Assembly (NCBI GenBank): GCA_002011475.1
Contig: MTNP01000037.1
Coordinates: forward strand, 77,246 to 141,245
Direction: 5' to 3'
DNA length: 64,000 nt
Source of the DNA: Dehalococcoides sp. JdFR-54
GTDB lineage: Bacteria > Chloroflexota > Dehalococcoidia > JdFR-54
Made by a program: the position numbers and the translations under genes. The notes under the pieces were generated by a model that was given only the letters and a program-made list of their open reading frames with translations, was not told the DNA's origin and did no database searches. Position 1 is the stretch's first letter. Each line of letters opens with the position of its first letter. Below are positions 977 to 27,174 of this stretch, piece after piece.

Positions 977-1073
977 CTCCTGCGTGGTGGCTATTATATC
1001 ACGAAATTCGTTTCCCCAGGGCAGGCTTGCCGCAATAGGGGTGGATTTCCAGTTGTGCTATAATGGGGCTACT

Positions 1074-2219: not shown

Positions 2220-2278
2220 GAGGCAAGCCATGGCCCTCTTTTGACCTGGGGGGCCGTTCTCCCTTGCTTCGGGTGTTT

Positions 2279-2335
2279 AAGAGGGGCGAAGCCCCTCTTT
2301 CGATAAAGTTCCCCCTCTCCTGGAAGGAGAGGGGG
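2279..2335 (+). promoter_or_regulatory. two perfect GC-rich hairpins in the proB-proA spacer (aagaggggc-gaa-gcccctctt; ccccctctcc-tggaa-ggagaggggg)
   Basis: Read directly from the sequence. The second hairpin ends 20 nt upstream of the proA GTG start. Confidence 0.3.
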
Positions 2336-2354
2336 ATAAAGGGGGTGAGGTCGA

Positions 2355-3629
2355 GTGTTGGCTGCCAGCGCTGAACTGGAGCAGAAGGCCAAGGCTGCCA
2401 AGGCGGCGGCCCGCCGGATGGCCTATCTGTCCACGGAGATAAAGAACCAGGCCCTGCACAACATCGCCGAAAACCTTGTAAGTCGTCAGGACGAGATCCT
2501 AGAGGCCAATAAAGTCGACTGCCAGGAGGGCGAAAAAGCCGGGCTCAGCCCGGCCATGCTCGACCGGCTCCTGCTCAACCCGGAGCGCCTAGCGGGCATG
2601 GCCTCGGATGTGCGCGCCGTGGCCGCCCTCCCCGACCCGGTGGGCGAGGTCTTCGATATGCGCACCTTGCCCAACGGCCTCGTCCTGGGTCGCAAGCGGG
2701 TGCCCCTGGGGGTCATCGCCTCCATCTACGAGAGCCGCCCCAATGTCACCGTGGACATCTCTGTGCTGTGCCTTAAGGCGGGGAACGCCGTTATCCTGAG
2801 GGGTGGCCGCGAGGCCATTAACTCCAACAAGGCCCTGGCCAAGGTGGTGCAGGACGCTGTCTATAGCGCTGGCGTGCCCCAGGGGGCGGTGCAGCTCATC
2901 GAGTCCACGGAGCACGCCCTGGTGGACGAGATGCTCCAGATGAGGGACTATATCGACCTGCTGGTGCCCCGGGGCGGCGCCGGCCTCATCAATATGGTGA
3001 AGGAGAGGGCCCTGATGCCAGTGGTGGCCGGTGGGGTGGGGGTGTGCCATACCTATGTAGATGCTGCCGCCGACCTGGCCAAGGCGGTGTCCATCGTCTA
3101 CAACGCCAAGGTGCAGCGCCCCACGGTATGCAATGCCCTGGACACCATTCTGGTTCACTCCGCGGTGGCCCGGCCCTTTCTGGCGGCGGCCGCCCCGGAG
3201 CTGGCCAGGGCCGGGGTGGAGCTGCACTGCGACCAGCGCTCGCTGGCCATACTCGAGGATATGTCTGGCCTCAATATCAAGCCCGCCACCGAGGAGGACT
3301 GGGGCAAGGAGTTCCTGGCCCTCATCGCCGCCGTCAGGGTGGTGGACTCCCTGGACGAGGCCCTGGCCCATATCGAGCGCTACGGCTCGGGCCATTCCGA
3401 GGCCATCGTCACCGAGGACTACTCGGCGGGGATGCGCTTCCTCAATGAGGTGGACGCTGCCTGCGTATATGTCAACGCCAGCACCCGCTTCACCGATGGC
3501 GGTCAGTTCGGGCTTGGGGCGGAGGTGGGCATCAGCACCCAGAAGTTCCATGCTCGTGGCCCCTTGGGTTTGCGGGAGCTCACCAGCTATAAGTGGATAA
3601 TCATGGGCAGCGGGCAAGTGCGGGGGTGA
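2355..3629 (+). CDS. proA: gamma-glutamyl phosphate reductase
   Basis: GTG start. 424 aa with aldehyde-dehydrogenase-like ProA motifs and the C-terminus LTSYKWIIMGSGQVRG. Sits in the proB-proA operon context. Confidence 0.9.
   Translation: MLAASAELEQKAKAAKAAARRMAYLSTEIKNQALHNIAENLVSRQDEILEANKVDCQEGEKAGLSPAMLDRLLLNPERLAGMASDVRAVAALPDPVGEVFDMRTLPNGLVLGRKRVPLGVIASIYESRPNVTVDISVLCLKAGNAVILRGGREAINSNKALAKVVQDAVYSAGVPQGAVQLIESTEHALVDEMLQMRDYIDLLVPRGGAGLINMVKERALMPVVAGGVGVCHTYVDAAADLAKAVSIVYNAKVQRPTVCNALDTILVHSAVARPFLAAAAPELARAGVELHCDQRSLAILEDMSGLNIKPATEEDWGKEFLALIAAVRVVDSLDEALAHIERYGSGHSEAIVTEDYSAGMRFLNEVDAACVYVNASTRFTDGGQFGLGAEVGISTQKFHARGPLGLRELTSYKWIIMGSGQVRG
3567..3627. repeat. copy 1 of a ~60-bp direct repeat (native 3' end of proA); candidate att site
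   Basis: ggtttgcgggagctcaccagcta[t/c]aagtggataatcatgggcagcgggca[a/g]gtgcggg recurs at 4288-4348 with 2 mismatches. Confidence 0.6.
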
Positions 3630-4284: not shown

Positions 4285-5994
4285 CTAGGTTTGCGGGAGC
4301 TCACCAGCTACAAGTGGATAATCATGGGCAGCGGGCAGGTGCGGGGATAAGAAATTAAAGGTTAAGTTCGAATCCGGCCTGGGGAGCCAGGCTAACGGCG
4401 CAGAGCGCGGGTTACCCGCTTCTAATACCCGAGCGAATCGCCCTTGTTCGGGAGGTCTCCCGTAGAGGGCGATTTTTATTTCCTCCTCGGACAGCACCGC
4501 CTTGTGCAGCACCAGGCGCACCAGTTCTTTCTGCTGGTGGGGCTGGAGGCTGGCGAACACCCCGTCCATTTTCTCCAGGGCTGCCTTCACGGTATCCCTG
4601 CTGACGGCGTCCCTCTCGATCTCCCCGACAGCCACTTCCAGGGAGGCTATGCCTTCTTCCAACTCTCGGCGGCGCTTGGCCAGGCTATCCAGTTTTTCCT
4701 TCAAGAACGCGTCCCCTTCTGATCCTGCTATGGTCGCCCATCTCGACATTAAACCATCTGCCGTATTCTTCACCTCCGTCAACTCCCGCTGAAGGAGCGC
4801 CTTCTGCTGCAGAAGCTGGGGCATCTCCTGGTGGAGCTGCTCGTTAGTGGCAGTCACCAGTTCGGCCAAGATGTCTTCCCTCAGGGCGAGCTCTTTAAGC
4901 CGGCCCAGGATGAGGCCCTCAATCTCTCCCGCAGGCACCTTGAAGCGGCACTCACGGTTTTTGCACCTGTAGTAGTAATACTTTATGCCTTTGCTTCCGG
5001 TGCCGCATATACCCTCCATCTCGGCACCGCACTTCCCGCACCAGAGCAGGCCGCTGTTCAGGATATAGTTGTGTCTCACGGCCCTCGCCCTGTTGCCGTT
5101 GGAACGGTCATTGGCCGCCAGCAGCCTTTGCACCTGGTGGAATTTTTCCTCATCCACTATGGCGGGCCAGACCGCTTTCACCACCCTATATCTCTCAGCT
5201 TCGGGCAGCTTAGCCTGGTCCTCGCTCTTGCGTTTCTTGTTGACCTCTTTCTTCCCTATGTAGGCCATATTGGTGAGCATCCAGTGGACGCCGGAGTAGG
5301 TGAAGCGCTGAGGGGGATGGTAGATGCCCCGGCGGGAGGTGTATTCCTTCATGCGATAGCCCTTGCGGTTCAGCTCCTTGGCAGTTTCAAACACTGACCC
5401 GCACTTGAGATAGGTATCAAAGGCGAAATTGACGATGGCAGCTTCCCCTTCGTTGGGGATAAGATAGCCCTTCTTTGCCGGGTCAGTGTCATAGCCCAGC
5501 AGATGGCCGCCGTTCCAGAGTCCTCGTTCCGCTCGGGCCAGGGTAGCATCCCGGGTTCTCTCTGAGGTCTGCTCCCTTTCAAACTCGGCCAGAGCCATGA
5601 CTACAGTGATAAAGAGGCGCCCATGGGCCGAGGTGGTGTCGTAGTTCTGCTTGAGGCACACGAACTCCACATTGTGCTGGTTGAGGATTTCAAAGAAGTT
5701 GAGGAAGTCTTTGACCGACCTGCTGATACGGTCCAGGGCAGTACAGAGGACGGTGTTGACCTTGCCCAGGCGGATGTCCTCGAAGAGGCGGGCGAACTCC
5801 CGGCTGCGGAAGGAGTCTTTACCTGATACGGCCTTGAGCACATAGCGTTCGCTTTCTACCCATCTTTCCTCGCCCGTCATATTCTTGTATTCAATATGGG
5901 CGCGGAGGCGCTGAAGTTGAGTAGTTAAGGAGCCCTCCTCGTTCTTCGCCTGACGGTCGGTGCTCACCCGGATGACTAAGCCACATTTCTTCAC
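4285..5994 (-). CDS. large serine recombinase (phage integrase)
   Basis: 569 aa, GTG start. N-terminal resolvase domain (GLVIRVSTDRQ with catalytic Ser, ...LDRISRS), a recombinase domain, a Cys-rich zinc ribbon (CGKCGAEM...YYYYRCKNREC) and a coiled-coil. The last ~20 codons read through repeat copy 2. Confidence 0.85.
   Translation of the reverse strand: MKKCGLVIRVSTDRQAKNEEGSLTTQLQRLRAHIEYKNMTGEERWVESERYVLKAVSGKDSFRSREFARLFEDIRLGKVNTVLCTALDRISRSVKDFLNFFEILNQHNVEFVCLKQNYDTTSAHGRLFITVVMALAEFEREQTSERTRDATLARAERGLWNGGHLLGYDTDPAKKGYLIPNEGEAAIVNFAFDTYLKCGSVFETAKELNRKGYRMKEYTSRRGIYHPPQRFTYSGVHWMLTNMAYIGKKEVNKKRKSEDQAKLPEAERYRVVKAVWPAIVDEEKFHQVQRLLAANDRSNGNRARAVRHNYILNSGLLWCGKCGAEMEGICGTGSKGIKYYYYRCKNRECRFKVPAGEIEGLILGRLKELALREDILAELVTATNEQLHQEMPQLLQQKALLQRELTEVKNTADGLMSRWATIAGSEGDAFLKEKLDSLAKRRRELEEGIASLEVAVGEIERDAVSRDTVKAALEKMDGVFASLQPHQQKELVRLVLHKAVLSEEEIKIALYGRPPEQGRFARVLEAGNPRSAPLAWLPRPDSNLTFNFLSPHLPAAHDYPLVAGELPQT
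4288..4348. repeat. copy 2 of the proA 3'-end direct repeat; candidate att site at the prophage left end
   Basis: 58/60 identity to 3567-3627. Overlaps the 3' end of the serine recombinase ORF. Confidence 0.6.
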
Positions 5995-10215: not shown

Positions 10216-10645
10216 GAAGGCAAGCGCAGTTTTGCCAGGCTCGGACACTCTGGACAGGGAGATGCTGCAGCAAATCCAGGTGCTGCTTATGCAGTTCTTC
10301 GGCCGCAGCTACGAGCCCCTCTCGTCCCCTATCTGGATGGTGCTCCGCTGCCCCGCTTGCGGCAGAACAGGCATGGCCTATGTGGATGGGGGCTTCCTCC
10401 ATGTGGCCGAGGACCACACGGAGGCCTACGAAACGGTGGCCACAGGCCTTACCTGGAGACAAGCTCGGAGCTACTTCGGCACCCCTGTTGAGGAGATATT
10501 CGGCATCGGGCCCTTCTTCGATTGGGAAGACATAGGAACCGCTGAGGAGGCCCGGTGCAGGAAGCGCCGGGAGCGCTTCATCGCTATGGCCGATTACCTT
10601 ACAGGCGTTACTGCCAGGAAGCCCTGCAACGGGAGGCACCTATGA
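10205..10645 (+). CDS. hypothetical protein
   Basis: 146-aa ORF. The start is uncertain. Confidence 0.3.
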   Translation: MTSRKASAVLPGSDTLDREMLQQIQVLLMQFFGRSYEPLSSPIWMVLRCPACGRTGMAYVDGGFLHVAEDHTEAYETVATGLTWRQARSYFGTPVEEIFGIGPFFDWEDIGTAEEARCRKRRERFIAMADYLTGVTARKPCNGRHL

Positions 10646-12234
10646 GCAGGCACGCCGAGGTGCTGCTCAAACTCATTGTGGGGCGCACCGACGCCTATGC
10701 CGTGCAGCAGCCCGACGGCTCCTACCTGGCCATCAGGAGGCCGTTGACCCTGGAGCTTCTCAAGGAGCACCTGGCAGGGCGAAGGACGGTGGGCACCTAC
10801 CTGGTAACCCCCGACGGCAAAGCCCGATGTGGCGTCTATGACTTTGATGAGAAGACCGACACGGTGCGCCACGCCCTGGACTGGTTGCGGCGGTGGTTTG
10901 AGCACTGGGACATCCGGCTGTGCCCCGAGTCCTCAGGGAGCAAGGGCTATCACGGGTGGATCATTACCAGGGACTTCATCCCTGCCTTCAAGCTCATCAA
11001 GCTCCTTAAGCTGGCCCTTCGGCAACTGGAGGAAAGGGAGGGGATATCGTGCCGGGTGGAGGTCTTCCCCAAGCAAGCGGTGGCTCAAGACCTGGGTAAC
11101 CTCATCAAGCTCCCCTGGGGAATCCACCGCAAGAGTGGCAAGCGCACGGCCTTCCTGGATGAGAGCTTCAAGCCCCTGCCTGACTGGGGAGTCAGCCTTG
11201 TCGAAACCCTGCCCCCCATCGCGGAGGCCAGGATCGACGAAATCCTGGCCGAATACCCCGAGGAAGAGGAGTCGCCTCCCCCTCCTGGGCAGCCCCCCAA
11301 TAGAAAGGTGGCCCTCCCTTGCTTTACCCGGATGCTGGAGGGGGTGAAGGAGGGCTTTCGGCACATCGCCAGCTTCCGCCTGGCGGTGATGCTCTACCGG
11401 CAGGGCATGGACCAGCAGCTGGCTAAGGCCATCCTCCTCAAGTGGGACATGGAGCGCAATCAGCCACCTCTGGGCGAAAGGCAGCTGGGCTACAACCTGA
11501 GGGACGCCTATTCAGGGAAATACAAGCTGGGCTGCCCCGACATCGAAGCCGCAGGCTACTGCTCCGAGGACTGCCCTGTCTATCGTAAGAGGCTGGGAGA
11601 AAGGGACAGGAGGGTTGAAGCTCCCCCACCCGACACCGTTGGCGTGAAGCGAATCGTGAAGCTGGCCACCGACCCGCCCAAATACGAGGTGGAAGTCGAC
11701 GGCAATGTGCTCAGGCTGAAGCACGAGCAGCTTTTCAACCTCAGGGAGTTCCAGAAGCTCTATCACCAGAAGTTCGACGTCATCCCCAACGTGGGGATGA
11801 AGCAGAGGGACTGGTTCGAGTATGTCAACAAGCTTCAGGCCCAGATGGAGAGACATGAGGCCCCGCCGGATGCCGCCGACAGGAGCCGCTACATAGACCT
11901 CATCTGGCAATGGCTGGAGACCACGACACCGGCTCAGTCGGAAGCGGATGTGGAGGCTGGCAGGCCGGTTCAGAAAGGCGACCGGTTCTATTTCAAGGCA
12001 GGCGCTGCCCAGGAGTACCTGAAGGCAAGACACCGCCTCAACATAGAGCGCTCAGAGCTGTGGGCTCTCATACGGCAGTTCGGGGGGATGGAAAAGCCCC
12101 AGGTCATCAGGGTAGGCAACAAGACTTTCCGCCTGTGGTCTCTTCCGATGAGGGTAGAAGTGAACGAGGAGGGCGAGCTTCTGCTGCCCCAGCCAGAGAA
12201 CGAGGAGGACATCAATGAAGACCTCGAGTTCTAA
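10642..12234 (+). CDS. archaeo-eukaryotic primase (AEP) family primase-polymerase
   Basis: ATG at 10642 (MSRHAEV...). VYDFDEKTD and SGSKGYHGWI resemble the AEP catalytic motifs (DxD, sGxrGxH). 530 aa. Confidence 0.6.
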   Translation: MSRHAEVLLKLIVGRTDAYAVQQPDGSYLAIRRPLTLELLKEHLAGRRTVGTYLVTPDGKARCGVYDFDEKTDTVRHALDWLRRWFEHWDIRLCPESSGSKGYHGWIITRDFIPAFKLIKLLKLALRQLEEREGISCRVEVFPKQAVAQDLGNLIKLPWGIHRKSGKRTAFLDESFKPLPDWGVSLVETLPPIAEARIDEILAEYPEEEESPPPPGQPPNRKVALPCFTRMLEGVKEGFRHIASFRLAVMLYRQGMDQQLAKAILLKWDMERNQPPLGERQLGYNLRDAYSGKYKLGCPDIEAAGYCSEDCPVYRKRLGERDRRVEAPPPDTVGVKRIVKLATDPPKYEVEVDGNVLRLKHEQLFNLREFQKLYHQKFDVIPNVGMKQRDWFEYVNKLQAQMERHEAPPDAADRSRYIDLIWQWLETTTPAQSEADVEAGRPVQKGDRFYFKAGAAQEYLKARHRLNIERSELWALIRQFGGMEKPQVIRVGNKTFRLWSLPMRVEVNEEGELLLPQPENEEDINEDLEF

Positions 12235-14896: not shown

Positions 14897-15659
14897 CCGA
14901 CTTTCTTTCAGCGCCGTGGAGACCTATCTCAAGTGTCCCAGGATGTTCGAGTATCGCTATTTGTGGAAGATGCCCCGGCCCGTGGGCGGCGGGCTAATCC
15001 AGGGCAAGGCGTACCATGCGGCGCTGGCCGCCGCCCTGGTGCAGAAGCTCCACACCGGCCAGTCCCTTCCTCTGGAGGAGACCCTGGACGCCTACTGTCA
15101 TTCCTTTGAGCAGGCCATCCTCAAGGAGTCCGATGAGGAGCTCGGCCCCATCTCAGGTGTCGACTGGGGCGAGCGCAAGCCAGGAGAGTGGAAAGACCAG
15201 GGCATCGCCCTGGTAAAACTCTACTACCAGGAGCACCTCCCCGGCCTGGAGCCCTACCTGATTGAGCAAAGGCTGGAGACAAGTGTCGACGGCATCCCCG
15301 TGGTGGGCTATGTCGACCTGGTGCTGAAGGATGGCAGGACGATAGACCACAAGGTCGTAGCCAGAACCTGGGCCGAGGAAGACGCTCATAAGGACCTCCA
15401 GCCCTCCTTCTACGCCCTGCTCCAGCGCCGACCCATCGACTTTGAGTTCCACCTGGCCATAAACACGAAGGAGCCCAGGCTGTCGGTCGTAGCTACCCGG
15501 CGGGACGAGCAGGCCATCCTGTGGACCGAGGATTTGATTCGCAAGGTCTGGGCACTGATGCAGACCGGAGTCTACCCAGGGAATCCAGTTGGCTATTGGT
15601 GCAGCCCCAAATTCTGCGGACATCAGGACTTGTGCAAGCGGGAGTTCAAGGTTCATTGA
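14889..15659 (+). CDS. PD-(D/E)xK nuclease, Cas4/RecB-like (DUF83-like) with a C-terminal Cys cluster
   Basis: N-terminal Cys (YLKCPRMFEY), GYVDLVL...IDHK, C-terminal YWCSPKFCGHQDLCK. Confidence 0.55.
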   Translation: MIDRLSFSAVETYLKCPRMFEYRYLWKMPRPVGGGLIQGKAYHAALAAALVQKLHTGQSLPLEETLDAYCHSFEQAILKESDEELGPISGVDWGERKPGEWKDQGIALVKLYYQEHLPGLEPYLIEQRLETSVDGIPVVGYVDLVLKDGRTIDHKVVARTWAEEDAHKDLQPSFYALLQRRPIDFEFHLAINTKEPRLSVVATRRDEQAILWTEDLIRKVWALMQTGVYPGNPVGYWCSPKFCGHQDLCKREFKVH

Positions 15660-15922
15660 CTACGGCGGCGGAGACAAAGCTGAGGGCTATCCCCTGGGGC
15701 AGGCCCACAGGATCGGCCCTTGAGGTGAGGACCCACTACGAGGATGCCAGGGTGCGCATCCTCAATGGGGATGTGCTGGCCGCGCTGCGCTCCCTCCCTG
15801 AAAGGAGCGTGGATATGGTGCTCACCTCCCCACCCTACTTCGGCTTGAGGGACTACGGCTACGGCGGAAACAACGACATGGTCAAAGCCCTGGAGGAAGT
15901 ATCGGCGTCACTTCCAGGGTAG
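15656..15922 (+). pseudogene. N-terminal fragment of a beta-class N6/N4 DNA methyltransferase (motif IV SPPY), out of frame with the downstream body
   Basis: VDMVLTSPPYFGLRDYGYGG in frame 2 terminates at 15922. The continuation (GGQLGLEQ...VEIFREVWRVLKDEGSFW) is in frame 0. Confidence 0.5.
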
Positions 15923-16025
15923 GGATTGCGAGTTCTCCTCCTATCTGCATGACGAGATAGCCCCCTTCGCCTGGTACATCAAGTATGGCGGGCAGCTAGG
16001 GCTGGAGCAGCGCTGGCAGTGGTAT

Positions 16026-18086
16026 GTGTGGCACCTGGTGGAGATATTCCGTGAGGTGTGGCGGGTGCTCAAGGACGAGGGCAGCTTCTGGCTGGTGATG
16101 GGCGATACCTACGCAGGCTCAGGCTGCGGCTGGAGCAAGCACGGCGGCACGGTGGGAATCCATTCCATCGACACCCGTGACCCCGGCATCTGGCCCAAGG
16201 GAAGACCACCCCAGTTCATAAGCAGCTCCAGGTACCCGGTGATGCGGCCCAAGCAGAAGATGCTCATCCCGGACAGGGTAGCTATGGCGCTTCAGCAGGA
16301 CGGCTGGCTCCTCAGGAACGACTGTATATGGCACAAGCCAAACAGTATGCCCGCCAGTGTGAAGGACAGGCTCTCCAACACCTTTGAGCATATATTTCAC
16401 TTCGTCAAGCGGGAGCGCTATTACTACCACCTGGATGCCATCCGTGAGCCCCACAAGACCTCCAGCCTGGAGCGCTACCAGAGGGGGCTGAATCAGAAGG
16501 CGGGACTGGGAAGGGCCTATCAAGGGAAACACAAAGGCCGAGAAGCGCAAACAAACAGGGAAGGTGGCACCCTGGGCAGCGCGGTGAGAGAAGGGGTGTC
16601 CTGCCATCCCCCACAGTGGTTCCAGGAGATGTTCCCGCCTGACACCCGCTACAAAGGCAAGTTTGACGACCTGGCCGAGCTCCAGGTCAAGCGGCCTGGC
16701 AGCAGGGCCAACAACCTCAATTTGAAGGTGGCGCACCAGAACCGGAACTTCATGTCCTATAAGCCCAGGAACTTCGACCTGCTCTCGGAGGAGGACAAGG
16801 TGCGAGTCCTGGAGGCCCTGGAAGCAGGGTTGAGGGTGGACATCGTCACTAAGGCCACGGCCGCCAGCATCCGGGCCCATGACAGTGGCAGGGCCAGGGA
16901 GATCGCCGAGAAGGGCTACGCCATCTACATAAACCATCCCCGGGGGCGCAACCCGGGCGACGTCATCCACGCCGGAACCAGGCAATTCTCCAAGAAATGG
17001 CGCAAGGAGACGGGGGAGCCCAGCGCCAGCCAGGAGGAGAGGCTGGCCCTGTACCACCCCCTGGGCCGAAATCCTGGCGATGTGCTGGCACCTGCCCAGG
17101 ACAAATACCAGCAGGCCATAGAGGAGGGCAAAGACTACCGACCTCCCCACTGGCCGGGGAACAGCCGCACCGGGGCAGCGGTATCCTCAGCGTATTCCAG
17201 GGAATGCCCTGGGCATCCCCTGGGGAAGAACCCTGGCGACATTCTGTTTGCAGACGAGAGGGGAAAACTGGGAGCCGAAAGACAGGTGATGGAGGAGTCG
17301 GGGTATGTTAACCAGCACTCAGGCTACATGCTGGCGGGACTGAAAATAAAGTCAAGGCTGGGCATAGATATAAGACATCCCCTGGGGAAGAACCCTGGCG
17401 ACTTAATCGAGGCAGGAGAGCGCCTGGGCGTGGACGCCCAGCCTGGCGGCAAAGGGCGTCCTCGTGCCGGGCTGGACATCCCTCACCAGAATCACCCTTT
17501 GGGTCGCAACCCAGGGGATGTGATGGGCAGACACCACGGTAGTGGCCCCCAGTACAAGCTCTCTGGCTTGAGGCGAGGGCAGAAGTATGTCGAGAACCCT
17601 CAGCCCGGCAGTCGCAGCCATATCCGCATGGGAGCCGAGTTGACCCAAGCCGCCGAGGACAACCTGCATCCCCTGGGACGGAATCCGGGGGACGTAGCTC
17701 ACCTGGCAGATGGACTGGGGCTGCCCCTGGACACCGATAGCCTGTTCTGCGATTACATCATGCGTCTCATAGCGGAGAAAGAGCGTGCCAAGCAGGAAGG
17801 ACGGGAGCCCGACTTCTGGTCGGTGAACACTCAGCCTTACCCCGAAGCCCACTTTGCGGTATTCCCCGAGGAGATCTGTCGTAAGCCCATCCTGGCCACC
17901 TGCCCGCCTGGTGGCACGGTGCTGGACCCCTTCTGCGGCTCGGGCACCGTTCTTGCAATGGCCAGGAGGCTGGGCAGAAAGGCTATTGGCATAGACATAG
18001 TGGAGAAGTACTGCGAGCTGGCCGCCCGCCGCTGCCAGCAGCAGGTGCTGCCCCTGGGGGCAGGTGAAGGAGGTGACAGGTCATGA
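16026..18086 (+). CDS. DNA methyltransferase (N6_N4_Mtase family) body. Contains six degenerate HPLG(R/K)NPGD repeats and a canonical C-terminal motif I (VLDPFCGSGT)
   Basis: REVWRVLKDEGSFWLVMGDTY, ...HFAVFPEEICRKPILATCPPGGTVLDPFCGSGTVLAMARRLGRKAIGID. Frame 0 is open from 15849. Confidence 0.7.
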   Translation: MWHLVEIFREVWRVLKDEGSFWLVMGDTYAGSGCGWSKHGGTVGIHSIDTRDPGIWPKGRPPQFISSSRYPVMRPKQKMLIPDRVAMALQQDGWLLRNDCIWHKPNSMPASVKDRLSNTFEHIFHFVKRERYYYHLDAIREPHKTSSLERYQRGLNQKAGLGRAYQGKHKGREAQTNREGGTLGSAVREGVSCHPPQWFQEMFPPDTRYKGKFDDLAELQVKRPGSRANNLNLKVAHQNRNFMSYKPRNFDLLSEEDKVRVLEALEAGLRVDIVTKATAASIRAHDSGRAREIAEKGYAIYINHPRGRNPGDVIHAGTRQFSKKWRKETGEPSASQEERLALYHPLGRNPGDVLAPAQDKYQQAIEEGKDYRPPHWPGNSRTGAAVSSAYSRECPGHPLGKNPGDILFADERGKLGAERQVMEESGYVNQHSGYMLAGLKIKSRLGIDIRHPLGKNPGDLIEAGERLGVDAQPGGKGRPRAGLDIPHQNHPLGRNPGDVMGRHHGSGPQYKLSGLRRGQKYVENPQPGSRSHIRMGAELTQAAEDNLHPLGRNPGDVAHLADGLGLPLDTDSLFCDYIMRLIAEKERAKQEGREPDFWSVNTQPYPEAHFAVFPEEICRKPILATCPPGGTVLDPFCGSGTVLAMARRLGRKAIGIDIVEKYCELAARRCQQQVLPLGAGEGGDRS
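16935..17696 (+). repeat. six in-frame copies of the peptide motif HP[LR]G[RK]NPGD[VIL] (nt 16935, 17055, 17214, 17376, 17493, 17667) inside the methyltransferase gene
   Basis: Seen in the translation. Confidence 0.6.
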
Positions 18087-18376
18087 CCGACCTTGAGATG
18101 TGGTCGTTGCTGGTGGGCTTCTTCCTGCCACCGGCCATAGCCGTAGTTCAGCGGAAAGAGTGGTCCGACGGCGTGCGAGCGCTGGTCGCCTTTGCCGCCT
18201 GCATTGTGGCTGCCCTGGGCACCTGCTACTTCAACGGCTCGCTGGATGGCAGGAGCCTCGTATCCGCAACCCTGACGGTGCTGGTCACTGCTGTGGCCAC
18301 CTACAAGGCTTTCTGGCACAAGACCGGGGTGAGCGACGCCATAGAGAGGCTGACCCGCCGGAAGATCAAGGCATAG
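18083..18376 (+). CDS. small membrane protein (2 predicted TM helices)
   Basis: 97 aa, hydrophobic. ATGA overlap with the methyltransferase stop. Confidence 0.4.
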   Translation: MTDLEMWSLLVGFFLPPAIAVVQRKEWSDGVRALVAFAACIVAALGTCYFNGSLDGRSLVSATLTVLVTAVATYKAFWHKTGVSDAIERLTRRKIKA

Positions 18377-18638: not shown

Positions 18639-19727
18639 ATGGTAACCGATGCGGTTCAGAAGTGGGTGGAGAATGCAGAGAGAGGCATCTTGCACAGAAG
18701 GCCTGGGCATGTGCTGACCAGTAGTAAGGAACTTAAGAAGTTAGGCAAATCTGATGTCGCTGAAAGCCTTTTAAGACAAGCGTTGGCGGAACTTCCTGCT
18801 GAAATTGACAAAACTAGAATACTTGTCGACCTCTGCTCTATAGTTATGCAGACAAATCCTGCTGAGGTTCTAGACCTTGTCAAAATGGGTGGGAAGAAGG
18901 ACCCAGGTTTGCTCCTAATGGAAGCAACAGCATTGGGGCGGCTGGAGAAGCGTGACGAAGCAATAGCTCGGCTGGAAGACGAAATTAAGTTAGACCCTCA
19001 CCTTGGAAAGAACGTCTTTATTGCCACCAAATTAGCGACATTGTACTTAGAAGAGGGGAGAAATCAAGAAACTATCAAGTTCTTAGAGCCCTTGGTTAGC
19101 GCAGGACACTTTGGACGCCATCTCCAAATTAAACAAATCCTGGCGGATGCATACATCAAGACTGGAAGAGCTGATAAAGCACTTGAACTGTTAAGTGGCT
19201 TGAGGGACGACCGGAGCCGCGAACTCGCTAACAGAGCGCAAGAAGTCCTCGGCGAGGGAGCACCCGTAGCGCCAGGTGGAGGACCTCGTGTCTTCGTAGT
19301 GCATGGGCATGATAGGCCTTCCCTTTCTGAGCTTAAGAATTTACTTTATAAGATTGGTGCCGAGCCTTTAACCTTCGATGATCTCCCCAAGCCTGGATCC
19401 CCGACCGTAATTGAGCTTTTGGAAAAACATGTTCCCACCTTTGACGCACTTGTTGCGCTTCTTACACCGGATGATGAAGGCAGAAAACGAGGCGAGACGG
19501 AGTGGGAGTTGAGAGCGAGGGAGAATGTCTTGATAGAAGCTGGCTACGGACTAATTTCCCGACGCGAAAGAAGCCTGATTGTGGCCCTGGGTGGAGTGTC
19601 AATCCCCTCTGACCTTGAGGGCATTCATCGCGTAGTAGGCGATGAGTGGACTGCCGCGGTAGGAATGAAGGTAGCAAGACGGCTACGCGATATGCAGCTT
19701 AACGTGGATGCATCAAAAGCGGCATAA
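18639..19727 (+). CDS. TPR-like N-terminal domain fused to a TIR-like nucleotide-binding domain (PF10137-type); moron
   Basis: C-terminal VFVVHGHD...ALLTPDDEG...RARENVLIEAGYGLISRRERSLIVALGGVSIPSDLEGIH fits the predicted-nucleotide-binding TIR-like family. GC is markedly lower than the flanks and its own terminator follows. Confidence 0.6.
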   Translation: MVTDAVQKWVENAERGILHRRPGHVLTSSKELKKLGKSDVAESLLRQALAELPAEIDKTRILVDLCSIVMQTNPAEVLDLVKMGGKKDPGLLLMEATALGRLEKRDEAIARLEDEIKLDPHLGKNVFIATKLATLYLEEGRNQETIKFLEPLVSAGHFGRHLQIKQILADAYIKTGRADKALELLSGLRDDRSRELANRAQEVLGEGAPVAPGGGPRVFVVHGHDRPSLSELKNLLYKIGAEPLTFDDLPKPGSPTVIELLEKHVPTFDALVALLTPDDEGRKRGETEWELRARENVLIEAGYGLISRRERSLIVALGGVSIPSDLEGIHRVVGDEWTAAVGMKVARRLRDMQLNVDASKAA

Positions 19728-22274: not shown

Positions 22275-23602
22275 GCTGGCTTGACCGCCTGACAGGGAAG
22301 AGACGGGGGCCCAGGGTCCTGGAGAGCCTGGTGCGAGTGGGCACCTATGGCGACGCCCAGGCAGCCGAGGCCCGCCGCCGACCCGAGGAGGGGAAGTGGC
22401 TCACCCGGGTGGACCCGCAGAAGCTGTGCCTGCTCTACATCGTCGAGCCTACCTTCTTCCGGGCGGTGAACACCTACGCCCATATCCTGTCCTCCCTGCC
22501 CTACAGGGTGGAATCGGAGAGCGAGGAGGCAAAGAAAGTAGTAACTGACTTCTGCCAGGGCATCGACCTCCAGGGCAGGATCGAGGAGATAGTGCGCCAC
22601 CAGGGGATCATCGGCAACGCCTTCGCCGAGCTTATCAGGAACGGGGCAGGCCACATCGTTGACCTTCTGGTGGTGGAGAACCCGGAGACCTTCGACTTCA
22701 TCAGGAATGCCTCGGGGGACATCGAGTTCGACCAGGACGGCCTGCCCAGAGGCTACGAGCAGAAGCTGTCAAAGGAGATAAGGGGCAGGCAGTTCTCCAG
22801 GGAGGACATCGTCCACTTCCGCCTGTTCACCGCCCCTGGCGTCTACTGGGGCATCGGCCTCATCGAGCCCCTCTACAAGACGGCGCTGCGCAAGCTCAAC
22901 ATCGAGGAGGCCCTGGCCGAGGTGGCCCACAAGAGGTCGGCCCCCATAGCGGTGTTCAGGATGGGGGTCCTGGAGCCCCAGGAGCGGATGCCCACCGCCC
23001 AGGAGCGCAAGGACCTGGAAGAGATGATGGCCAACCTCAAGAGCCAGAGCTACATCTTCCTGCCTCCCTACATCGGCCTGGAGTTCAAGTCGCCCGAGGG
23101 GATAGAGCGGGTGGTGGAGAGCCTGAAGCACTTCAACGAGCTCATGGCCACCGGGCTGGGGGTGCCCCCTACCATCCTGGGGCTCACCGATACCCCGGTG
23201 GGTGCGGCCAGGTCGGCAGATGTGGCCTTCGAGCGCAATATCAGGGCCTATCTCCGCTCCCTATCTCGCACCTTCGAGCGGGAGGTATTCGCCAGGCTGC
23301 TGGAGCAGGAGGGGATAGAGGCCCGGGTGCATCTCAGGTGGGGAGACCTCTCCGAGCCCGACAAGCTCTCCAGGGCGAGGAGGCTGGGCGTCTACGCCCG
23401 GGCGGGCCTGCTCTCCCCTGACCTCAGGCTGGAGAACTGGATCAGGCAGTACGAAGACCTGCCCGAAAAAGAAGAGGCCAGGGTTGCGCTCTCCGGCGAA
23501 GAGGAGCTTCGTAACCTCATCGGCCAGGAGATGCAGCGTCTGGAGGAGAAGGTTAGGGAGATAGTCAAGCAGGAGCTTAGAGATGAGTGGCAGGACTACT
23601 GA
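22271..23602 (+). CDS. portal protein
   Basis: 443 aa. GTGA overlap with terL. Position and size typical of a portal. Confidence 0.6.
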   Translation: MSWLDRLTGKRRGPRVLESLVRVGTYGDAQAAEARRRPEEGKWLTRVDPQKLCLLYIVEPTFFRAVNTYAHILSSLPYRVESESEEAKKVVTDFCQGIDLQGRIEEIVRHQGIIGNAFAELIRNGAGHIVDLLVVENPETFDFIRNASGDIEFDQDGLPRGYEQKLSKEIRGRQFSREDIVHFRLFTAPGVYWGIGLIEPLYKTALRKLNIEEALAEVAHKRSAPIAVFRMGVLEPQERMPTAQERKDLEEMMANLKSQSYIFLPPYIGLEFKSPEGIERVVESLKHFNELMATGLGVPPTILGLTDTPVGAARSADVAFERNIRAYLRSLSRTFEREVFARLLEQEGIEARVHLRWGDLSEPDKLSRARRLGVYARAGLLSPDLRLENWIRQYEDLPEKEEARVALSGEEELRNLIGQEMQRLEEKVREIVKQELRDEWQDY

Positions 23603-24335
23603 GAAGGTGCCGGAGCTTGAGCTTCTGCCCATATCCCGGAACCAGGCGGCGGCTTTTGTCCGGGAGCACCACTACGCCAGGAAGCTGCCCTCTACCTGCA
23701 AGCTCTACCTGGGCGGCTTCACCAGGGAGGGCCTCATGGCGGTGGCGGTCTGGGGCTATGGGGTGCGTCCCCTGCACACCGCCAGGAAGCTGGTCATGGG
23801 GGCCAGCACCGCCGAATACCTGGAGCTCAACCGCCTCTGCGTCCACGATTCGCTGCCCAGGAACAGCGAGAGCCATTTCCTATCGCTTTGCGTGAAGTGG
23901 ATAGAGCAGAACATGCCCCAGGTGGAGTGGCTCTTCTCCTTCGCCGACGGCATCTACGGCAAGCCGGGCTATGTGTATCAGGCAGCGGGCTGGCTCTGCG
24001 TGGGCAGGATACTCACCGAGAGATATGTCCTCGCCGATGGCACCGTTGTCCATCCCAGGCTGCCCGTCACCCGAAACGGCACCAGAACCTGGGCCTTCAT
24101 GGTGCGCCACTATCCGGGGATCAAGCGCCTCTGGGGATACCAGTTCAAATATCTCAAGCCCATAGGCTCCAGCACCGACAAGAGGCACGTGCTGAGGCGA
24201 TTGCTGGCGTCACCTCAGCCGTATCCGAAACATGGCGACTGCGTGATTTACGAGGCGGTGGAGGGCTCGAGGGTGAGCCGCCGTGTTTCCTTCACGGAGG
24301 GGCAGGTTCGACTCCTGCCCACCGCTCCAGCTTGA
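23583..24335 (+). CDS. Mom-like acyltransferase-fold protein (candidate DNA-modification enzyme)
   Basis: ...ELNRLCVHDSLPRNSESHFLS...LFSFADGIYGKPGYVYQAAGWLCVG resembles the Mom/GNAT-like pattern (SFAD...G..G.vYqAagW). Confidence 0.4.
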   Translation: MSGRTTEKVPELELLPISRNQAAAFVREHHYARKLPSTCKLYLGGFTREGLMAVAVWGYGVRPLHTARKLVMGASTAEYLELNRLCVHDSLPRNSESHFLSLCVKWIEQNMPQVEWLFSFADGIYGKPGYVYQAAGWLCVGRILTERYVLADGTVVHPRLPVTRNGTRTWAFMVRHYPGIKRLWGYQFKYLKPIGSSTDKRHVLRRLLASPQPYPKHGDCVIYEAVEGSRVSRRVSFTEGQVRLLPTAPA

Positions 24336-26038: not shown

Positions 26039-27174
26039 TAAGGGTTACTTTCCTGGGCACCAGAGCCGAGGTGGAAATACCTCAGGAGGGCCACGACGAT
26101 CCCCAGTGCCAGGAAGCCCGTCGCCTGGGTAATGACTACTACCATAAGCTGCATTCCTCCCTGCTCATTGAGGCAGAGGGCAGCAGGCTCATGCTCGATG
26201 CCGGGGAGGGGCACGAGGAGATGGTGGCCAGGGTAAAGCCCGACGCCATCCTGGTCACCCATGCCCATCCCGACCACCTCTCCAGAAGGCTGGAAGCCCT
26301 TGAGCCTGCCATCCCCGTCTACATGAGCGAGGATACCGCCGAGGTTATCAAACTGCCCCACGAGCAGGTATTTCCTGAAGACAAGCCCTTTGAGGTGGCG
26401 GGGTTCAAGGTGGTGGCCCATCCCGTTGTCCACTCCCTGGTGGCCCCAGCTGTTTGCTTTAAGGTGTCAAAGGGGGACTTCACCCTGGTCTATGCCCCGG
26501 ATGTGGTCTCCATACCCGACCGCCAGCACTTCCTCAAGGGCGTTGACCTCTACATCGGCGATGGCTCCTCCCTTACCAGGGACATCATCCGCCGCAGGGA
26601 CGATAAGCTCATCGGGCATGCCAGTATGCTCAGGCAGCTTCGCTGGGCAGAGGGGATGAAGCAGGTTCTCTTCACCCATGTGGGGCACCTGAAGAAGACC
26701 GAGGCCGATGTCAACCAGGCCCTGCGCATCGCCTCCGATGGGAGGGCCCGCCTGGCCCGGGACGGGATAAGCCTGGAGTTTGAGAGCCTCCAGGTCACCA
26801 TCGAGACCATTGCCCCGGTTCTGGCTCCAGCTATCCCCACCAGAGCTGAGCCTCAAGACCTTATCCAGGATGCAGAGAGCTACGATGCCTCTGCCCCCAG
26901 GGATGACCAACTCAGGGACGACTGGCGCATCGTCTGCGGCTGGTATGCCACCCTGAAGAGCGGCGGCGACATCAAGTTCGATGAGGCCACCATCGTGGCT
27001 CTGGGGCAGAAAATCCTCAAGGAGCTGCTGCGCCGCAAGCGGAAAGACCCCCTCAGTCTTTACCGCCCACCCCGGGGAGATGAAGGAGTATCCCAGGGAG
27101 CTCTACGAGCGCATCACCAGAGAGTGGGACCCAGAGGACAAAGCCTTCCTGGAGACCGAGCCGGAGGAGCTTGA
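26035..27174 (+). CDS. metallo-beta-lactamase-fold hydrolase (candidate nuclease)
   Basis: LVTHAHPDHL (HxHxDH) and further MBL motifs. The C-terminal ~30 codons overlap the next gene and look low-complexity, so the true stop is uncertain. Confidence 0.55.
   Translation: MIRVTFLGTRAEVEIPQEGHDDPQCQEARRLGNDYYHKLHSSLLIEAEGSRLMLDAGEGHEEMVARVKPDAILVTHAHPDHLSRRLEALEPAIPVYMSEDTAEVIKLPHEQVFPEDKPFEVAGFKVVAHPVVHSLVAPAVCFKVSKGDFTLVYAPDVVSIPDRQHFLKGVDLYIGDGSSLTRDIIRRRDDKLIGHASMLRQLRWAEGMKQVLFTHVGHLKKTEADVNQALRIASDGRARLARDGISLEFESLQVTIETIAPVLAPAIPTRAEPQDLIQDAESYDASAPRDDQLRDDWRIVCGWYATLKSGGDIKFDEATIVALGQKILKELLRRKRKDPLSLYRPPRGDEGVSQGALRAHHQRVGPRGQSLPGDRAGGA

What the first reader, a model, noticed from the sequence alone, without database searches (positions are those of the whole stretch)
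15656..18086. Phage DNA methyltransferase with six internal HPLG(R/K)NPGD repeats and a disrupted N-terminus
The beta-class methyltransferase has its DPPY-type motif IV (SPPYFGLRDYGYGG) in one frame, ending at 15922. The rest of the protein (GGQLGLEQ...VEIFREVWRVLKDEG...) is in another frame that opens at 15849. The two reading frames bracket ~125 nt, and similar TAYGGCGG stretches lie at each edge. That points to an insertion, a frameshift, or a sequencing error. Between the catalytic region and the canonical C-terminal AdoMet motif (HFAVFPEE...NPGD-like ...VLDPFCGSGT), the protein has six spaced copies of HP[LR]G[RK]NPGD[VIL]. These look like degenerate reiterations of the HPxxFP/NPGDxVLDPF segment. 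I do not know of such a repeat array in N6_N4 methyltransferases. It may form a repeated DNA-contacting module.
Basis: seen in the sequence. Interest (0 to 1): 0.6.

Follow-up and report, generated by a model that had tools for sequence, protein, structure and literature searches.

The report
Frameshifted prophage methyltransferase with cassette array
A prophage DNA methyltransferase gene is broken by one extra C, not by an inserted element, and its six HPxG(K/R)NPGD repeats mark the ends of unrelated, strongly conserved cassettes sitting where this enzyme class reads its DNA target, an arrangement that is rare, undescribed, and may let one enzyme recognise several sites.

Summary
Both observations are real. 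The gene (15725-18086, +) is a beta-class N6/N4 DNA methyltransferase (PF01555) in a Mu-like prophage of a Dehalococcoidia MAG.

The frame break is not a 124-nt insertion. That stretch is conserved coding sequence, read in frame in relatives. The window has one extra C (CCC at 15888-15890; relatives have CC). A second assembly carries the same extra C, and a ~97% identical intact allele of 805 aa exists. The break is probably a very recent inactivating mutation.

The six HP[LR]G[RK]NPGD copies are conserved as peptide, with differences mostly at synonymous sites. [quoted passage not shown] Here it ends five cassettes of 39-58 aa.

- The cassettes are not detectably homologous to one another.
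- They recur in shuffled combinations in relatives carrying 1-11 or more copies.
- They are gained and lost motif-to-motif among close relatives.
- They evolve under dN/dS of about 0.09, the same as the catalytic core.

AlphaFold gives no solenoid. No Pfam, PHROG or NCBIfam model and no paper found covers the array.

Best reading, inferred only: tandem TRD-like cassettes, analogous to the multispecific C5-methyltransferases of Bacillus phages.

The parts
15725..18086 (+). Whole methyltransferase gene, read in two frames and repaired to 786 aa by removing one C. The start, GTG 15725, follows the call made for relative P0003 and is uncertain. Stop is TGA 18084-18086.
   Evidence: Pfam PF01555 E=1.6e-47. 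Foldseek top hits are M.RsrI, CcrM, M.BceJIV and M.PvuII.
15725..15922 (+). N-terminal segment in frame 2, ending at the premature TAG 15920-15922 created by the frameshift.
15827..15838 (+). Catalytic motif IV, SPPY.
   Evidence: S35/P36/P37/Y38 are nearly invariant across the 120 aligned sequences.
15888..15890 (+). CCC run holding the one extra C, which causes a +1 frameshift. Relatives have CC here: AAAG-CCTGG, read K-A-W.
   Evidence: DNA alignments A1, A4 and A5. Coordinates checked.
15869..15992 (+). Conserved coding segment NNDMVKAWRKYRRHFQGRDCEFSSYLHDEIAPFAWYIKYGG.
   Evidence: Read in frame in P0002, P0003 and P0149. 92-96% nucleotide column identity to L001/L002 and to L123.
16026..18086 (+). 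The mechanically listed C-terminal ORF (686 aa, frame 0; the frame is open from 15849). NCBI annotated 682 aa of it (HEX77152.1). It lacks motif IV.
16476..16934 (+). First part of the TRD-position region (residues 251-403). It includes a small confidently modelled alpha/beta unit at about residues 350-403 (pLDDT 85-93).
   Evidence: Shared with P0007 and P0008.
16935..17696 (+). Cassette array: six junction motifs delimiting five cassettes of 40, 53, 54, 39 and 58 aa (residues 404-657).
   Evidence: dN/dS 0.08-0.10. pLDDT 33-47.
16935..16964 (+). Motif copy 1, HPRGRNPGDV.
17055..17084 (+). Motif copy 2, HPLGRNPGDV.
17214..17243 (+). Motif copy 3, HPLGKNPGDI.
17376..17405 (+). Motif copy 4, HPLGKNPGDL. 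It is identical to copy 3 over 27 nt.
17493..17522 (+). Motif copy 5, HPLGRNPGDV.
17667..17696 (+). Motif copy 6, HPLGRNPGDV.
17697..17798 (+). Helical linker (AHLADGL...AKQE) between the last full motif and the canonical junction.
   Evidence: Helices 654-664 and 670-690 in the model. Conserved in P0002, P0003 and P0149.
17799..17819 (+). Degenerate seventh, canonical copy GREP-DFW, leading into strand beta-6 (DFWSV).
   Evidence: It aligns with PKDVWSV at residue 194 of M.BceJIV 8URK, which is the end of that enzyme's TRD. Compare GKNPGDVWKIS in P0113.
17850..17867 (+). Motif X, HFAVFP.
17919..17948 (+). Motif I, the AdoMet-binding site, VLDPFCGSGT.

Best explanation
What is shown.
- The locus is the gene for a beta-class (motif IV - TRD - motif X - motif I) amino-DNA-methyltransferase.
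- It lies in the replication and early region of a Mu-like prophage in a Dehalococcoidia genome.
- One extra C in a C-run (15888-15890) shifts the frame 63 codons after the start and creates a stop at 15920-15922.
- As it stands in this genome, the gene cannot make an enzyme that contains motif IV.
- An intact, ~97% identical allele exists elsewhere. The window copy shows no other damage, so the lesion is very recent, or less likely a read-level error.
- The six HPxG(K/R)NPGD repeats are extra copies of a junction motif. Ordinary relatives have it once, at the C-terminal end of the target-recognition domain, immediately before strand beta-6.
- Each extra copy closes a 39-58 aa cassette.
- The cassettes are not detectably homologous to one another.
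- Each belongs to a family that recurs in other methyltransferases in different combinations and orders.
- A family almost never occurs twice in one protein.
- Cassettes are inserted or deleted exactly motif-to-motif among close relatives.
- They are under purifying selection as strong as the catalytic core.

What is inferred.
- Origin: the arrays grow and shrink by unequal or inter-gene recombination at the conserved junction codons.
- Function (my probability about 0.35-0.4): each cassette is a small TRD-like DNA-reading module. Cassette size (39-58 aa) is comparable to the 28-residue TRD of M.BceJIV.
- On this reading, one catalytic core carries several alternative target readers. A phage enzyme could then methylate several sites and protect against several restriction systems, as the multispecific C5-methyltransferases of Bacillus phages do.
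- The cassettes are expected to be disordered until DNA is bound.
For: Frameshift.
- Relatives read through the region.
- DNA alignments show a single 1-nt gap at the C-run against L001, L002 and L123.
- The same extra C is in a Logan assembly of SRR3723048.
- dN/dS between the window and the intact allele is 0.10-0.11.

Family and position.
- PF01555 E=1.6e-47.
- Structural neighbours are all beta-class methyltransferases.
- The window's P-DFWSV aligns to residue 194 of M.BceJIV.
- That enzyme's TRD is residues 167-194 and lies between the motif IV-VIII block and the motif X/I-III block (PMC11380664).
- The class beta order is IV-TRD-I, and postulated TRDs of earlier beta-class structures were disordered without DNA (PMC7544214).

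Canonical single copy.
- P0107 and P0113 have one motif followed directly by (I/V)(F/W)KI..K.F..AHFA.
- In the AF2 model of P0113 the motif (residues 252-257) lies in a block with pLDDT 87, followed by strand 258-260.
- 116 of 119 genome loci and 32 of 38 IMG/VR loci have one copy.

Cassette behaviour.
- 275 cassettes fall into about 69 clusters.
- Only 10 cassettes repeat a family already present in the same protein.
- Order is variable.
- hhalign between families gives at most 44% probability.
- The window, P0002 and P0003 carry 5, 3 and 1 cassettes, with junctions exactly at the motifs.
- Cassette 3 is 84-87% identical to P0005, P0006 and P0121, where the N-terminal core is 45-70% identical.
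- Array dN/dS is 0.08-0.10 against 0.08-0.12 for the core.
- Motif copies differ mostly at third codon positions.
- Internal copies are as well conserved as terminal ones.
- Some cassette families also occur in the pre-motif region of other relatives, including single-motif enzymes: 33 of 96 regions.

Mobile-element context.
-.

Precedent.
Against: - No experiment or structure shows that any cassette touches DNA or sets specificity.
- AlphaFold gives the array pLDDT 33-47. That is compatible with true disorder, or with a shallow per-cassette alignment, and so proves nothing either way.
- Only 1 of 32 single-motif viral enzymes has a pre-motif segment matching an internal cassette family. The link from cassette to the sole TRD of a simple enzyme therefore holds only partly.
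- Only the last copy is covalently continuous with strand beta-6. How an internal cassette would reach the DNA cleft is unexplained.
- The window gene itself is frameshifted, so nothing is being methylated by it in this host unless the extra C is an error.
- Whether the two assemblies that carry the extra C come from independent reads is unknown.
Confidence: 0.5

Rival explanations
1. The array is a flexible, basic accessory region that binds DNA without sequence specificity. It would act as a tether, a processivity element or a spacer, rather than as a set of target readers.
For: The array is rich in Gly, Pro, Arg and His, with pI 9.5. Its pLDDT is 33-47 with almost no secondary structure. 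The CcrM C-terminal segment as a non-specific DNA binder is recalled from memory, not checked here.
Against: Compositional roles do not need sequence conservation. Yet cassettes are 70-87% identical between enzymes whose cores are 45-67% identical, and array dN/dS equals that of the core. A cassette family almost never occurs twice in one protein, which a dosage-type tether would not require.
Confidence: 0.2
2. The extra C is a sequencing or consensus error, so the gene is intact and expressed in the real prophage.
For: The site is a homopolymer. There is no second lesion in 2.3 kb, and dN/dS against the intact allele is 0.10-0.11. An allele with CC exists.
Against: A separately built assembly (Logan, SRR3723048) has the identical CCC. 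A 3-base run is not a typical error site for short reads (own knowledge). Whether both assemblies rest on the same reads could not be checked.
Confidence: 0.2
3. The reiterated junction motifs are protein-protein contacts. Candidates are domain-swapped oligomerisation of this obligately dimeric enzyme class, binding of a host or virion partner, or proteolytic processing sites.
For: The motif is a short, invariant linear element repeated in a region predicted to be unstructured. Beta-class enzymes work as dimers with swapped TRDs (PMC7544214 and PMC11380664).
Against: The motif and cassettes were found only in PF01555 methyltransferases or their fragments. This covers the 16 of 36 hits that were inspected from a search of 1.84 billion representatives. 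No partner gene co-occurs consistently in the loci viewed.
Confidence: 0.1
4. The cassettes are neutral scars of illegitimate recombination between methyltransferase genes at the conserved junction codons, and have no function of their own.
For: Indels among close relatives run exactly motif-to-motif. Copies 3 and 4 share 27 identical nucleotides.
Against: Array dN/dS is 0.08-0.10. All six internal motifs are perfect at the peptide level while varying at synonymous sites. Cassettes are more conserved than the core across distant relatives.
Confidence: 0.05
5. The 124 nt between the TAYGGCGG octamers is an inserted element with a target-site duplication, or a coding gap bypassed or spliced out. 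Alternatively, the frame change is programmed.
For: There are 8-nt near-identical direct repeats in codon phase, and removing 124 nt restores the frame.
Against: The segment is present, conserved and translated in frame in P0002, P0003 and P0149. The frame is restored by removing one C. The site AAA-GCC-CUG is not shared by relatives. It also has none of the known slippery features: no re-pairing of Ala-tRNA on CCC, no stop or rare codon, no long homopolymer (own knowledge of +1 frameshift sites).
Confidence: 0.01

Closest known systems
Beta-class amino-DNA-methyltransferases, Pfam PF01555 N6_N4_Mtase (M.BceJIV 8URK, CcrM 6PBD, M.RsrI 1EG2, TTHA0409 2ZIE, M.PvuII 1BOO)
   Same: Motif order is IV (SPPY) - TRD region - X (HFAVFP) - I (DPFCGSGT). 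The Pfam match is E=1.6e-47, and these enzymes are the fold neighbours. The variable region sits where the M.BceJIV TRD (residues 167-194) sits.
   Different: The region between motif VIII and strand beta-6 is about 450 aa instead of about 30-60 aa. It contains six extra copies of the junction motif. No solved structure aligns to the HPxGKNPGD motif itself. The window copy is frameshifted.
Multispecific DNA-(cytosine-C5)-methyltransferases of Bacillus temperate phages (M.SPRI, M.Phi3TI, M.Rho11sI, M.H2I, M.(phi)BssHII)
   Same: These are phage-borne enzymes with one catalytic core and a variable region holding several short, mutually dissimilar target-recognising modules arranged in a row (PMC12707154; references listed in PMC7544214 and PMC8936443). 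That the modules can be deleted or swapped individually is own knowledge from that literature. The window's family shows the same formal architecture and the same plasticity.
   Different: The enzyme class differs: C5 with a PC motif versus an amino-methyltransferase with SPPY. The permutation also differs. No conserved 9-residue junction motif is known for the C5 enzymes (own knowledge). Multispecificity is demonstrated for them and untested here.
Type I restriction-modification HsdS specificity subunits (TRD swapping at conserved repeats)
   Same: Variable target-reading modules are bounded by conserved segments at which recombination creates new combinations (own knowledge).
   Different: HsdS is a separate subunit with two TRDs of about 150 aa each, not an array inside the methyltransferase polypeptide.
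Tandem-repeat-generated disordered regions in proteins of Borg elements (PMC9879509)
   Same: A repeat-bearing, predicted-disordered insertion in a protein of a mobile element.
   Different: Borg repeats are near-perfect nucleotide tandem repeats of recent origin. Here the units are unrelated cassettes, the copies differ at synonymous sites, and they are old enough to be shared across phyla.

Membership tests
Beta-class amino-DNA-methyltransferase (PF01555 N6_N4_Mtase) | Significant match to the family profile. | tested here: met
   PF01555 E=1.6e-47, 162.8 bits against a cutoff of 26.7, on the repaired protein. phrog_67 'DNA methyltransferase' E=4.5e-65.
Beta-class amino-DNA-methyltransferase (PF01555 N6_N4_Mtase) | Motif order IV ((D/N/S)PP(Y/F/W)) - TRD - X - I (FxGxG). 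| tested here: met
   SPPY at 15827-15838, HFAVFP at 17850-17867, DPFCGSGT within 17919-17948. The order is as defined in PMC7544214.
Beta-class amino-DNA-methyltransferase (PF01555 N6_N4_Mtase) | Class beta fold. | tested here: met
   The core of the AF2 model has pLDDT above 90. Foldseek hits with E<=0.001 are essentially all beta-class enzymes, including M.RsrI, CcrM, M.BceJIV, M.PvuII, TTHA0409 and M.MboIIA.
Beta-class amino-DNA-methyltransferase (PF01555 N6_N4_Mtase) | An uninterrupted reading frame encoding both halves, that is, a functional gene. | tested here: not met
   One extra C at 15888-15890 separates motif IV from the rest. The family assignment stands, but this copy is a pseudogene unless the base is an error.
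Beta-class amino-DNA-methyltransferase (PF01555 N6_N4_Mtase) | Target base (N6-adenine or N4-cytosine) and recognition sequence. | not testable with these tools
   SPPY is commoner in N4-cytosine enzymes (own knowledge), and JGI labels several relatives 'cytosine-N4-specific'. There are no activity data.
Multispecific methyltransferase with tandem TRDs (Bacillus phage type) | Several dissimilar modules in series inside the TRD region of one catalytic core. | tested here: met
   The position is mapped through M.BceJIV. There are five cassettes. Cassette families are not homologous by hhalign, and the same family rarely occurs twice in one protein.
Multispecific methyltransferase with tandem TRDs (Bacillus phage type) | Modules individually dispensable or exchangeable. 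| tested here: inconclusive
   Natural variants with 5, 3 and 1 cassettes and otherwise about 85% identical proteins exist. Whether they are active is unknown.
Multispecific methyltransferase with tandem TRDs (Bacillus phage type) | Each module confers methylation of a distinct DNA sequence. | not testable with these tools
   This needs methylome or restriction-protection assays.
Multispecific methyltransferase with tandem TRDs (Bacillus phage type) | C5-cytosine methyltransferase core (PC motif). | tested here: not met
   The core is PF01555 with SPPY. The comparison is therefore an analogy, not membership.
Tandem-repeat or solenoid domain | Units homologous to one another and forming a repetitive fold. 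| tested here: not met
   Only the 9-10 aa motif is shared. hhalign probability between cassette families is at most 44%. AF2 gives no repetitive structure, pLDDT 33-47. TRF was not run, and the repeat finder sees only the 27-35 nt motif.
Inserted mobile element, intron or bypassed coding gap at 15868-15991 | Segment absent from uninterrupted homologs. | tested here: not met
   The segment is present and in frame in P0002, P0003 and P0149.
Programmed ribosomal frameshift | Shift site conserved in relatives and carrying a slippery or pausing context. | tested here: not met
   Relatives L001, L002 and L123 have no shift. No slippery context is seen in AAAGCCCUGGAGG (sequence; criteria from own knowledge).

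The most novel reading that the evidence does not exclude
The HPxGKNPGD junction motif defines a plug-and-play system of target-recognition cassettes in beta-class amino-methyltransferases of phages and other mobile elements. Each cassette would specify a different DNA sequence. Recombination at the junction codons would shuffle cassettes between genes, giving the first multispecific N6A/N4C methyltransferases and a natural toolkit of about 40-aa DNA-reading modules.
Probability: 0.3. Interest if true: 0.75.

Novelty: new variant of a known kind. Interest (0 to 1): 0.5.

Why it matters
The frameshift itself is ordinary. It does correct the annotation: the 682-aa 'site-specific DNA-methyltransferase' in the public record lacks its catalytic motif.

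The array matters more.
- It is a recurrent, strongly selected and so far undescribed architecture inside one of the best-studied enzyme families.
- It is found in bacterial and archaeal mobile elements.
- If the cassettes are target readers, one phage enzyme could defeat several restriction systems. That would extend a strategy known only from Bacillus-phage C5 enzymes to the amino-methyltransferases.
- It would also supply dozens of small, sequence-defined DNA-recognition modules whose specificities can be read directly by methylome sequencing.
- If the cassettes are not target readers, a disordered-looking region under core-level constraint still needs an explanation.

Tried and rejected
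1. 124-nt insertion, target-site duplication, intron or translational bypass. Rejected: the segment is conserved coding sequence, and removing one C restores the frame.

2. Programmed +1 frameshift. Rejected: the shift is not conserved and the context is not slippery.

3. Solenoid or repeat domain. AF2 with a 120-sequence alignment gave pLDDT 33-47 over the array. Cassette families are not homologous by hhalign.

4. Existing annotation for the array. Pfam, PHROGs and NCBIfam cover only the catalytic parts, and the isolated middle region hit no PHROG.

5. GenBank phages. tblastn against 50,697 records matched only the C-terminal catalytic part.

6. Literature. Full-text searches for NPGDVW, GKNPGD, NPGDV, NPGDFW, HPLGKNP and GRNPGD found nothing relevant. 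The classic multispecific-methyltransferase papers (PMC450048, PMC557019) are not held.

7. Solved structures containing the motif. PDB alignments start only at DFW/DVW.

8. Cassette as the TRD of single-motif viral enzymes. Only 1 of 32 matched, so this support is weak. Within the homolog set, 33 of 96 pre-motif regions matched.

9. phmmer of the array against 1.84 billion representatives gave only 36 hits at E<=0.001. All 16 that were inspected are methyltransferases or fragments of them, with no other protein context.

11. Look-up of P0153 found no record. P0151 gave the second assembly instead.

12. Resemblance of NPGDV(I/V) to the (K/R)PGD(I/V)VLDPF strand before motif I in some relatives.

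Full report
**1. The observation**

The region holds two overlapping open frames on the + strand.
- Frame 2 encodes ...VDMVLTSPPYFGLRDYGYGGNNDMVKALEEVSASLPG and stops at TAG 15920-15922.
- Frame 0 is open from 15849 and runs to TGA 18084-18086.
- SPPY (motif IV) is at 15827-15838, HFAVFP (motif X) at 17850-17867, and VLDPFCGSGT (motif I) at 17919-17948.
- TACGGCGG (15860-15867) and TATGGCGG (15984-15991) lie 124 nt apart.
- Six HP[LR]G[RK]NPGD[VIL] copies begin at 16935, 17055, 17214, 17376, 17493 and 17667.
- A degenerate DNA pattern for the motif finds exactly these six sites in the 64 kb. None was found in any of 100 shuffles.

**2. The frame break is one extra C, not an insertion**

A protein search with the 124-nt-deleted construct returned the window's own product. 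It is P0001, 682 aa, accession HEX77152.1, 'MAG TPA ... Dehalococcoidia bacterium', on a 536,624-bp contig. It also returned close relatives P0002 (694 aa) and P0003 (600 aa).

Those relatives read straight through the supposed insert...DYGYGGNNDMLKAWKKYRRRFQGKECEFSAHLDDEVAPFTWFIKYSGQLGLE....

I fetched their DNA (L001, L002) and aligned it. The window differs by a single-base gap:
- window: AAAGCCCTGGAGG
- relatives: AAAG-CCTGGAAG

The run is CCC at 15888-15890. Removing one C gives a 786-aa protein with ...NNDMVKAWRKYRRHFQGRDCEFSSYLHDEIAPFAWYIKYGGQLGLEQ....

The 90% cluster of P0001 contains P0149 (805 aa, JGI sample 3300037673). It is an uninterrupted allele with all six repeats. Its DNA (L123) is 96% identical to the window over the aligned N-terminal stretch and has CC.

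A Logan assembly of run SRR3723048 (L124) has the same CCC and the same split gene. The extra base is therefore not a quirk of one assembler. I could not establish whether the two assemblies use independent reads.

The two TAYGGCGG octamers are just two Tyr-Gly-Gly triplets. The site is not shared by relatives and has no slippery character, so programmed frameshifting is rejected.

The rest of the gene is undamaged, and dN/dS against the intact allele is 0.10-0.11. The lesion is either very recent or, less likely, a read-level error. As written, the downstream ORF that NCBI annotated lacks motif IV and could not be catalytic.

**3. Family and setting**

The repaired protein matches PF01555 (N6_N4_Mtase) at E=1.6e-47, but only over residues 29-224 and the C-terminus.

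PDB sequence neighbours are M.BceJIV, CcrM, TTHA0409, a bdelloid N4C methyltransferase, M.RsrI, M.MboIIA and M.PvuII.

The AF2 model has a confident core (pLDDT above 90). Its Foldseek neighbours are the same beta-class enzymes.

The neighbourhood is a prophage:
- large serine recombinase (4285-5994, -)
- sigma factor
- AEP primase
- UvrD helicase
- RusA
- PD-(D/E)XK nuclease
- this methyltransferase
- a TPR-TIR protein
- terminase
- Mu-type portal
- Mom
- tRNA-Gly
- Mu F

Relatives L001, L002 and L124 are syntenic.

**4. What the repeats are**

At the DNA level the six copies share 18-28 of 30 positions, and most of the variable positions are third codon positions. The peptide is what is conserved.

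Simple relatives have the motif exactly once, immediately before the strand that leads to motif X. An example is P0113...KKHHSKGKNPGDVWKISTKPFLGAHFATFP.

In an AF2 model of P0113 the motif (residues 252-257) lies in a block of pLDDT 87 and is followed by strand 258-260. The middle of its variable region has pLDDT 44-47.

In the window the canonical position is occupied by a degenerate seventh copy, GREP-DFWSVNTQPYPEAHFAVFP (17799-).

phmmer aligns this P-DFWSV to residue 194 of M.BceJIV. The M.BceJIV paper defines its TRD as residues 167-194, inserted between the motif IV-VIII block and the motif X/I-III block. The following loop-6F contacts the minor groove (PMC11380664). The motif therefore marks the C-terminal end of the TRD, and the array lies entirely in the TRD position.

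**5. The units between the motifs are cassettes, not repeats**

I split 119 homologs plus the window at the motif. This gave 275 inter-motif segments with a median length of 45 aa.

With the motif removed, all-against-all BLAST grouped them into about 69 clusters, at least 25 of them recurrent.
- Only 10 of the 275 segments repeat a family already present in the same protein.
- Order varies, with some conserved sub-blocks.
- Profile-profile comparison between families finds no relationship. The best probability is 44% and the rest are at most 6%.

Window cassettes 1, 3, 4 and 5 belong to recurrent families. Cassette 2 was a singleton in that set but matches P0123 at 69%.

Cassette 3 is 84-87% identical to P0005, P0006 and P0121. 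In those proteins the N-terminal core is 45-70% identical and the C-terminal core 56-68%.

Among the near relatives the window has five cassettes, P0002 three and P0003 one. Every indel runs exactly from motif to motif.

dN/dS values:

| Region | dN/dS |
|---|---|
| Array | 0.08-0.10 |
| Catalytic core | 0.08-0.12 |
| Helical linker | 0.18-0.31 |

Internal motif copies are as conserved as terminal ones: H67 P71 x G K84 N P G93 D, followed by [VI][IVL].

Some cassette families also occur in the pre-motif region of other homologs, including single-motif enzymes. That was 33 of 96 in the homolog set, but only 1 of 32 among single-motif IMG/VR enzymes.

**6. How common are the arrays?**

| Sample | Result |
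|---|---|
| Strict DNA pattern in IMG/VR | 38 contigs; 32 with one copy, maximum five |
| Best 80 IMG/VR relatives by profile | 75 lack the motif altogether |
| 147 proteins retrieved with this query (biased towards arrays) | copy number 0-11 by the strict regular expression; P0142 shows about 15 NPGD-like sites by eye |
| Array alone against 1.84 billion representatives | 36 proteins at E<=0.001; all 16 inspected are methyltransferases or fragments of them |

Two other array-bearing genes were examined for context. One lies next to an integrase, and the other is among hypothetical ORFs beside an archaeal Cdc6/Orc1 gene.

No Pfam, PHROG or NCBIfam model covers the array. No GenBank phage has it. 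Full-text searches for the motif found nothing relevant.

**7. Structure**

AF2 on the repaired protein with 120 sequences gave:
- core above 90;
- a small alpha/beta unit at about residues 350-403, pLDDT 85-93;
- the array (residues 405-655) at 33-47, with only one short helix;
- a helical linker at 654-690.

No solenoid is predicted. This is weak negative evidence. Cassette-level alignment depth is low, and postulated TRDs of earlier beta-class crystal structures were themselves disordered without DNA (PMC7544214).

**8. Mechanism**

Shown:
- the position in the TRD slot;
- the cassette architecture;
- motif-to-motif gain and loss;
- core-level purifying selection;
- carriage on mobile elements.

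Inferred:
- Arrays arise by recombination at the conserved junction codons. Copies 3 and 4 share 27 identical nucleotides.
- Each cassette is a small TRD-like reader, giving one catalytic core several specificities.

Three points speak for the inferred function:
- Cassette size (39-58 aa) is comparable to the 28-residue TRD of M.BceJIV.
- A cassette family rarely occurs twice in one protein.

I put this functional reading at about 0.35-0.4. The main alternatives are a non-specific DNA tether (about 0.2) and a protein-contact role (about 0.1). Neutral scars are disfavoured by the selection data.

It is unexplained how an internal cassette, which is not contiguous with strand beta-6, would be presented to DNA.

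**9. Verdict**

The N-terminal 'disruption' is an ordinary single-base frameshift in a prophage gene. It is probably real and recent, and the insertion idea is wrong.

The repeat observation is correct and leads to something more interesting than a repeat domain. It is a rare, undescribed, strongly constrained array of heterogeneous cassettes, each closed by the TRD/beta-6 junction motif, in mobile-element beta-class methyltransferases.

I rate it a new variant of a known kind, with interest 0.5.

Noticed in passing
window 18639-19727 (+): TPR repeats fused to a CAP12/Pycsar-type TIR domain (PF10137, E=1.5e-24). It lies in a low-GC islet (0.53 against about 0.62) between the methyltransferase and the terminase. 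It is present in the near-identical L124 and absent from the syntenic relative L001, so it is a variable phage-borne TIR gene (defence or counter-defence).
   Followed up: partly
window 23583-24335 (+) and 24252-24329 (+): A Mom-family DNA-modification protein (PF25680, E=2.9e-47), with a tRNA-Gly(TCC) gene overlapping the 3' end of its ORF. Together with the PF01555 gene and a Dam-type domain, the prophage carries three DNA-modification functions.
   Followed up: no
window 26981-30934 (+): A 1317-aa ORF fusing a D12/Dam-class N6-adenine methyltransferase domain (residues 353-547) with an ATP-dependent DNA ligase domain (754-941). The N-terminal ~350 aa and the C-terminal ~370 aa have no Pfam match.
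   Followed up: no
window 31043-33529 (-): An 828-aa protein with sacsin-like and NOV_C domains, on the opposite strand, in the lowest-GC part of the window (0.48-0.53). It may be an acquired island at or near the prophage end.
   Followed up: no
window 4285-5994 (-) and 903-3629 (+): A large serine recombinase (Resolvase + Recombinase + Zn ribbon) next to glutamate-5-kinase-like and aldehyde-dehydrogenase-family (proA-like) genes. This is the likely integration module and left edge of the prophage. The attachment sites were not sought.
   Followed up: no
window 18083-18376 (+): A conserved 97-aa ORF, membrane-like by eye (hydrophobic stretches; not tested). Its ATG (18083) overlaps the methyltransferase stop (ATGA). 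The same 97-aa gene follows the methyltransferase in L001 and L124, which suggests translational coupling.
   Followed up: partly
homologs P0009, P0125, P0130, P0134 (proteins): Several relatives of this methyltransferase carry large inserts that look like inteins or homing endonucleases (e.g. ...LRNDICLDGQTML...HNCWYKPNHMP...). The inserts sit inside the conserved 'RND(I)-W.KPN' motif. P0130 has a second insert near the C-terminal junction.
   Followed up: no
window 15869-15992 (+) and homologs P0010, P0011, P0107: The lineage-specific segment after motif IV (one Cys, no obvious metal site) sits where many relatives have a longer segment rich in Cys and His, W.G...C.HEW...C.KCGAW.GQLGLE, which looks like a zinc ribbon. 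The window lineage seems to carry a shortened, degenerate version.
   Followed up: no
window 10555-12234 (+): An archaeo-eukaryotic primase of the 'TOTE conflict system' type (PF22548, E=2.6e-24) with a PriCT-1 domain, used here in a prophage replication module.
   Followed up: no
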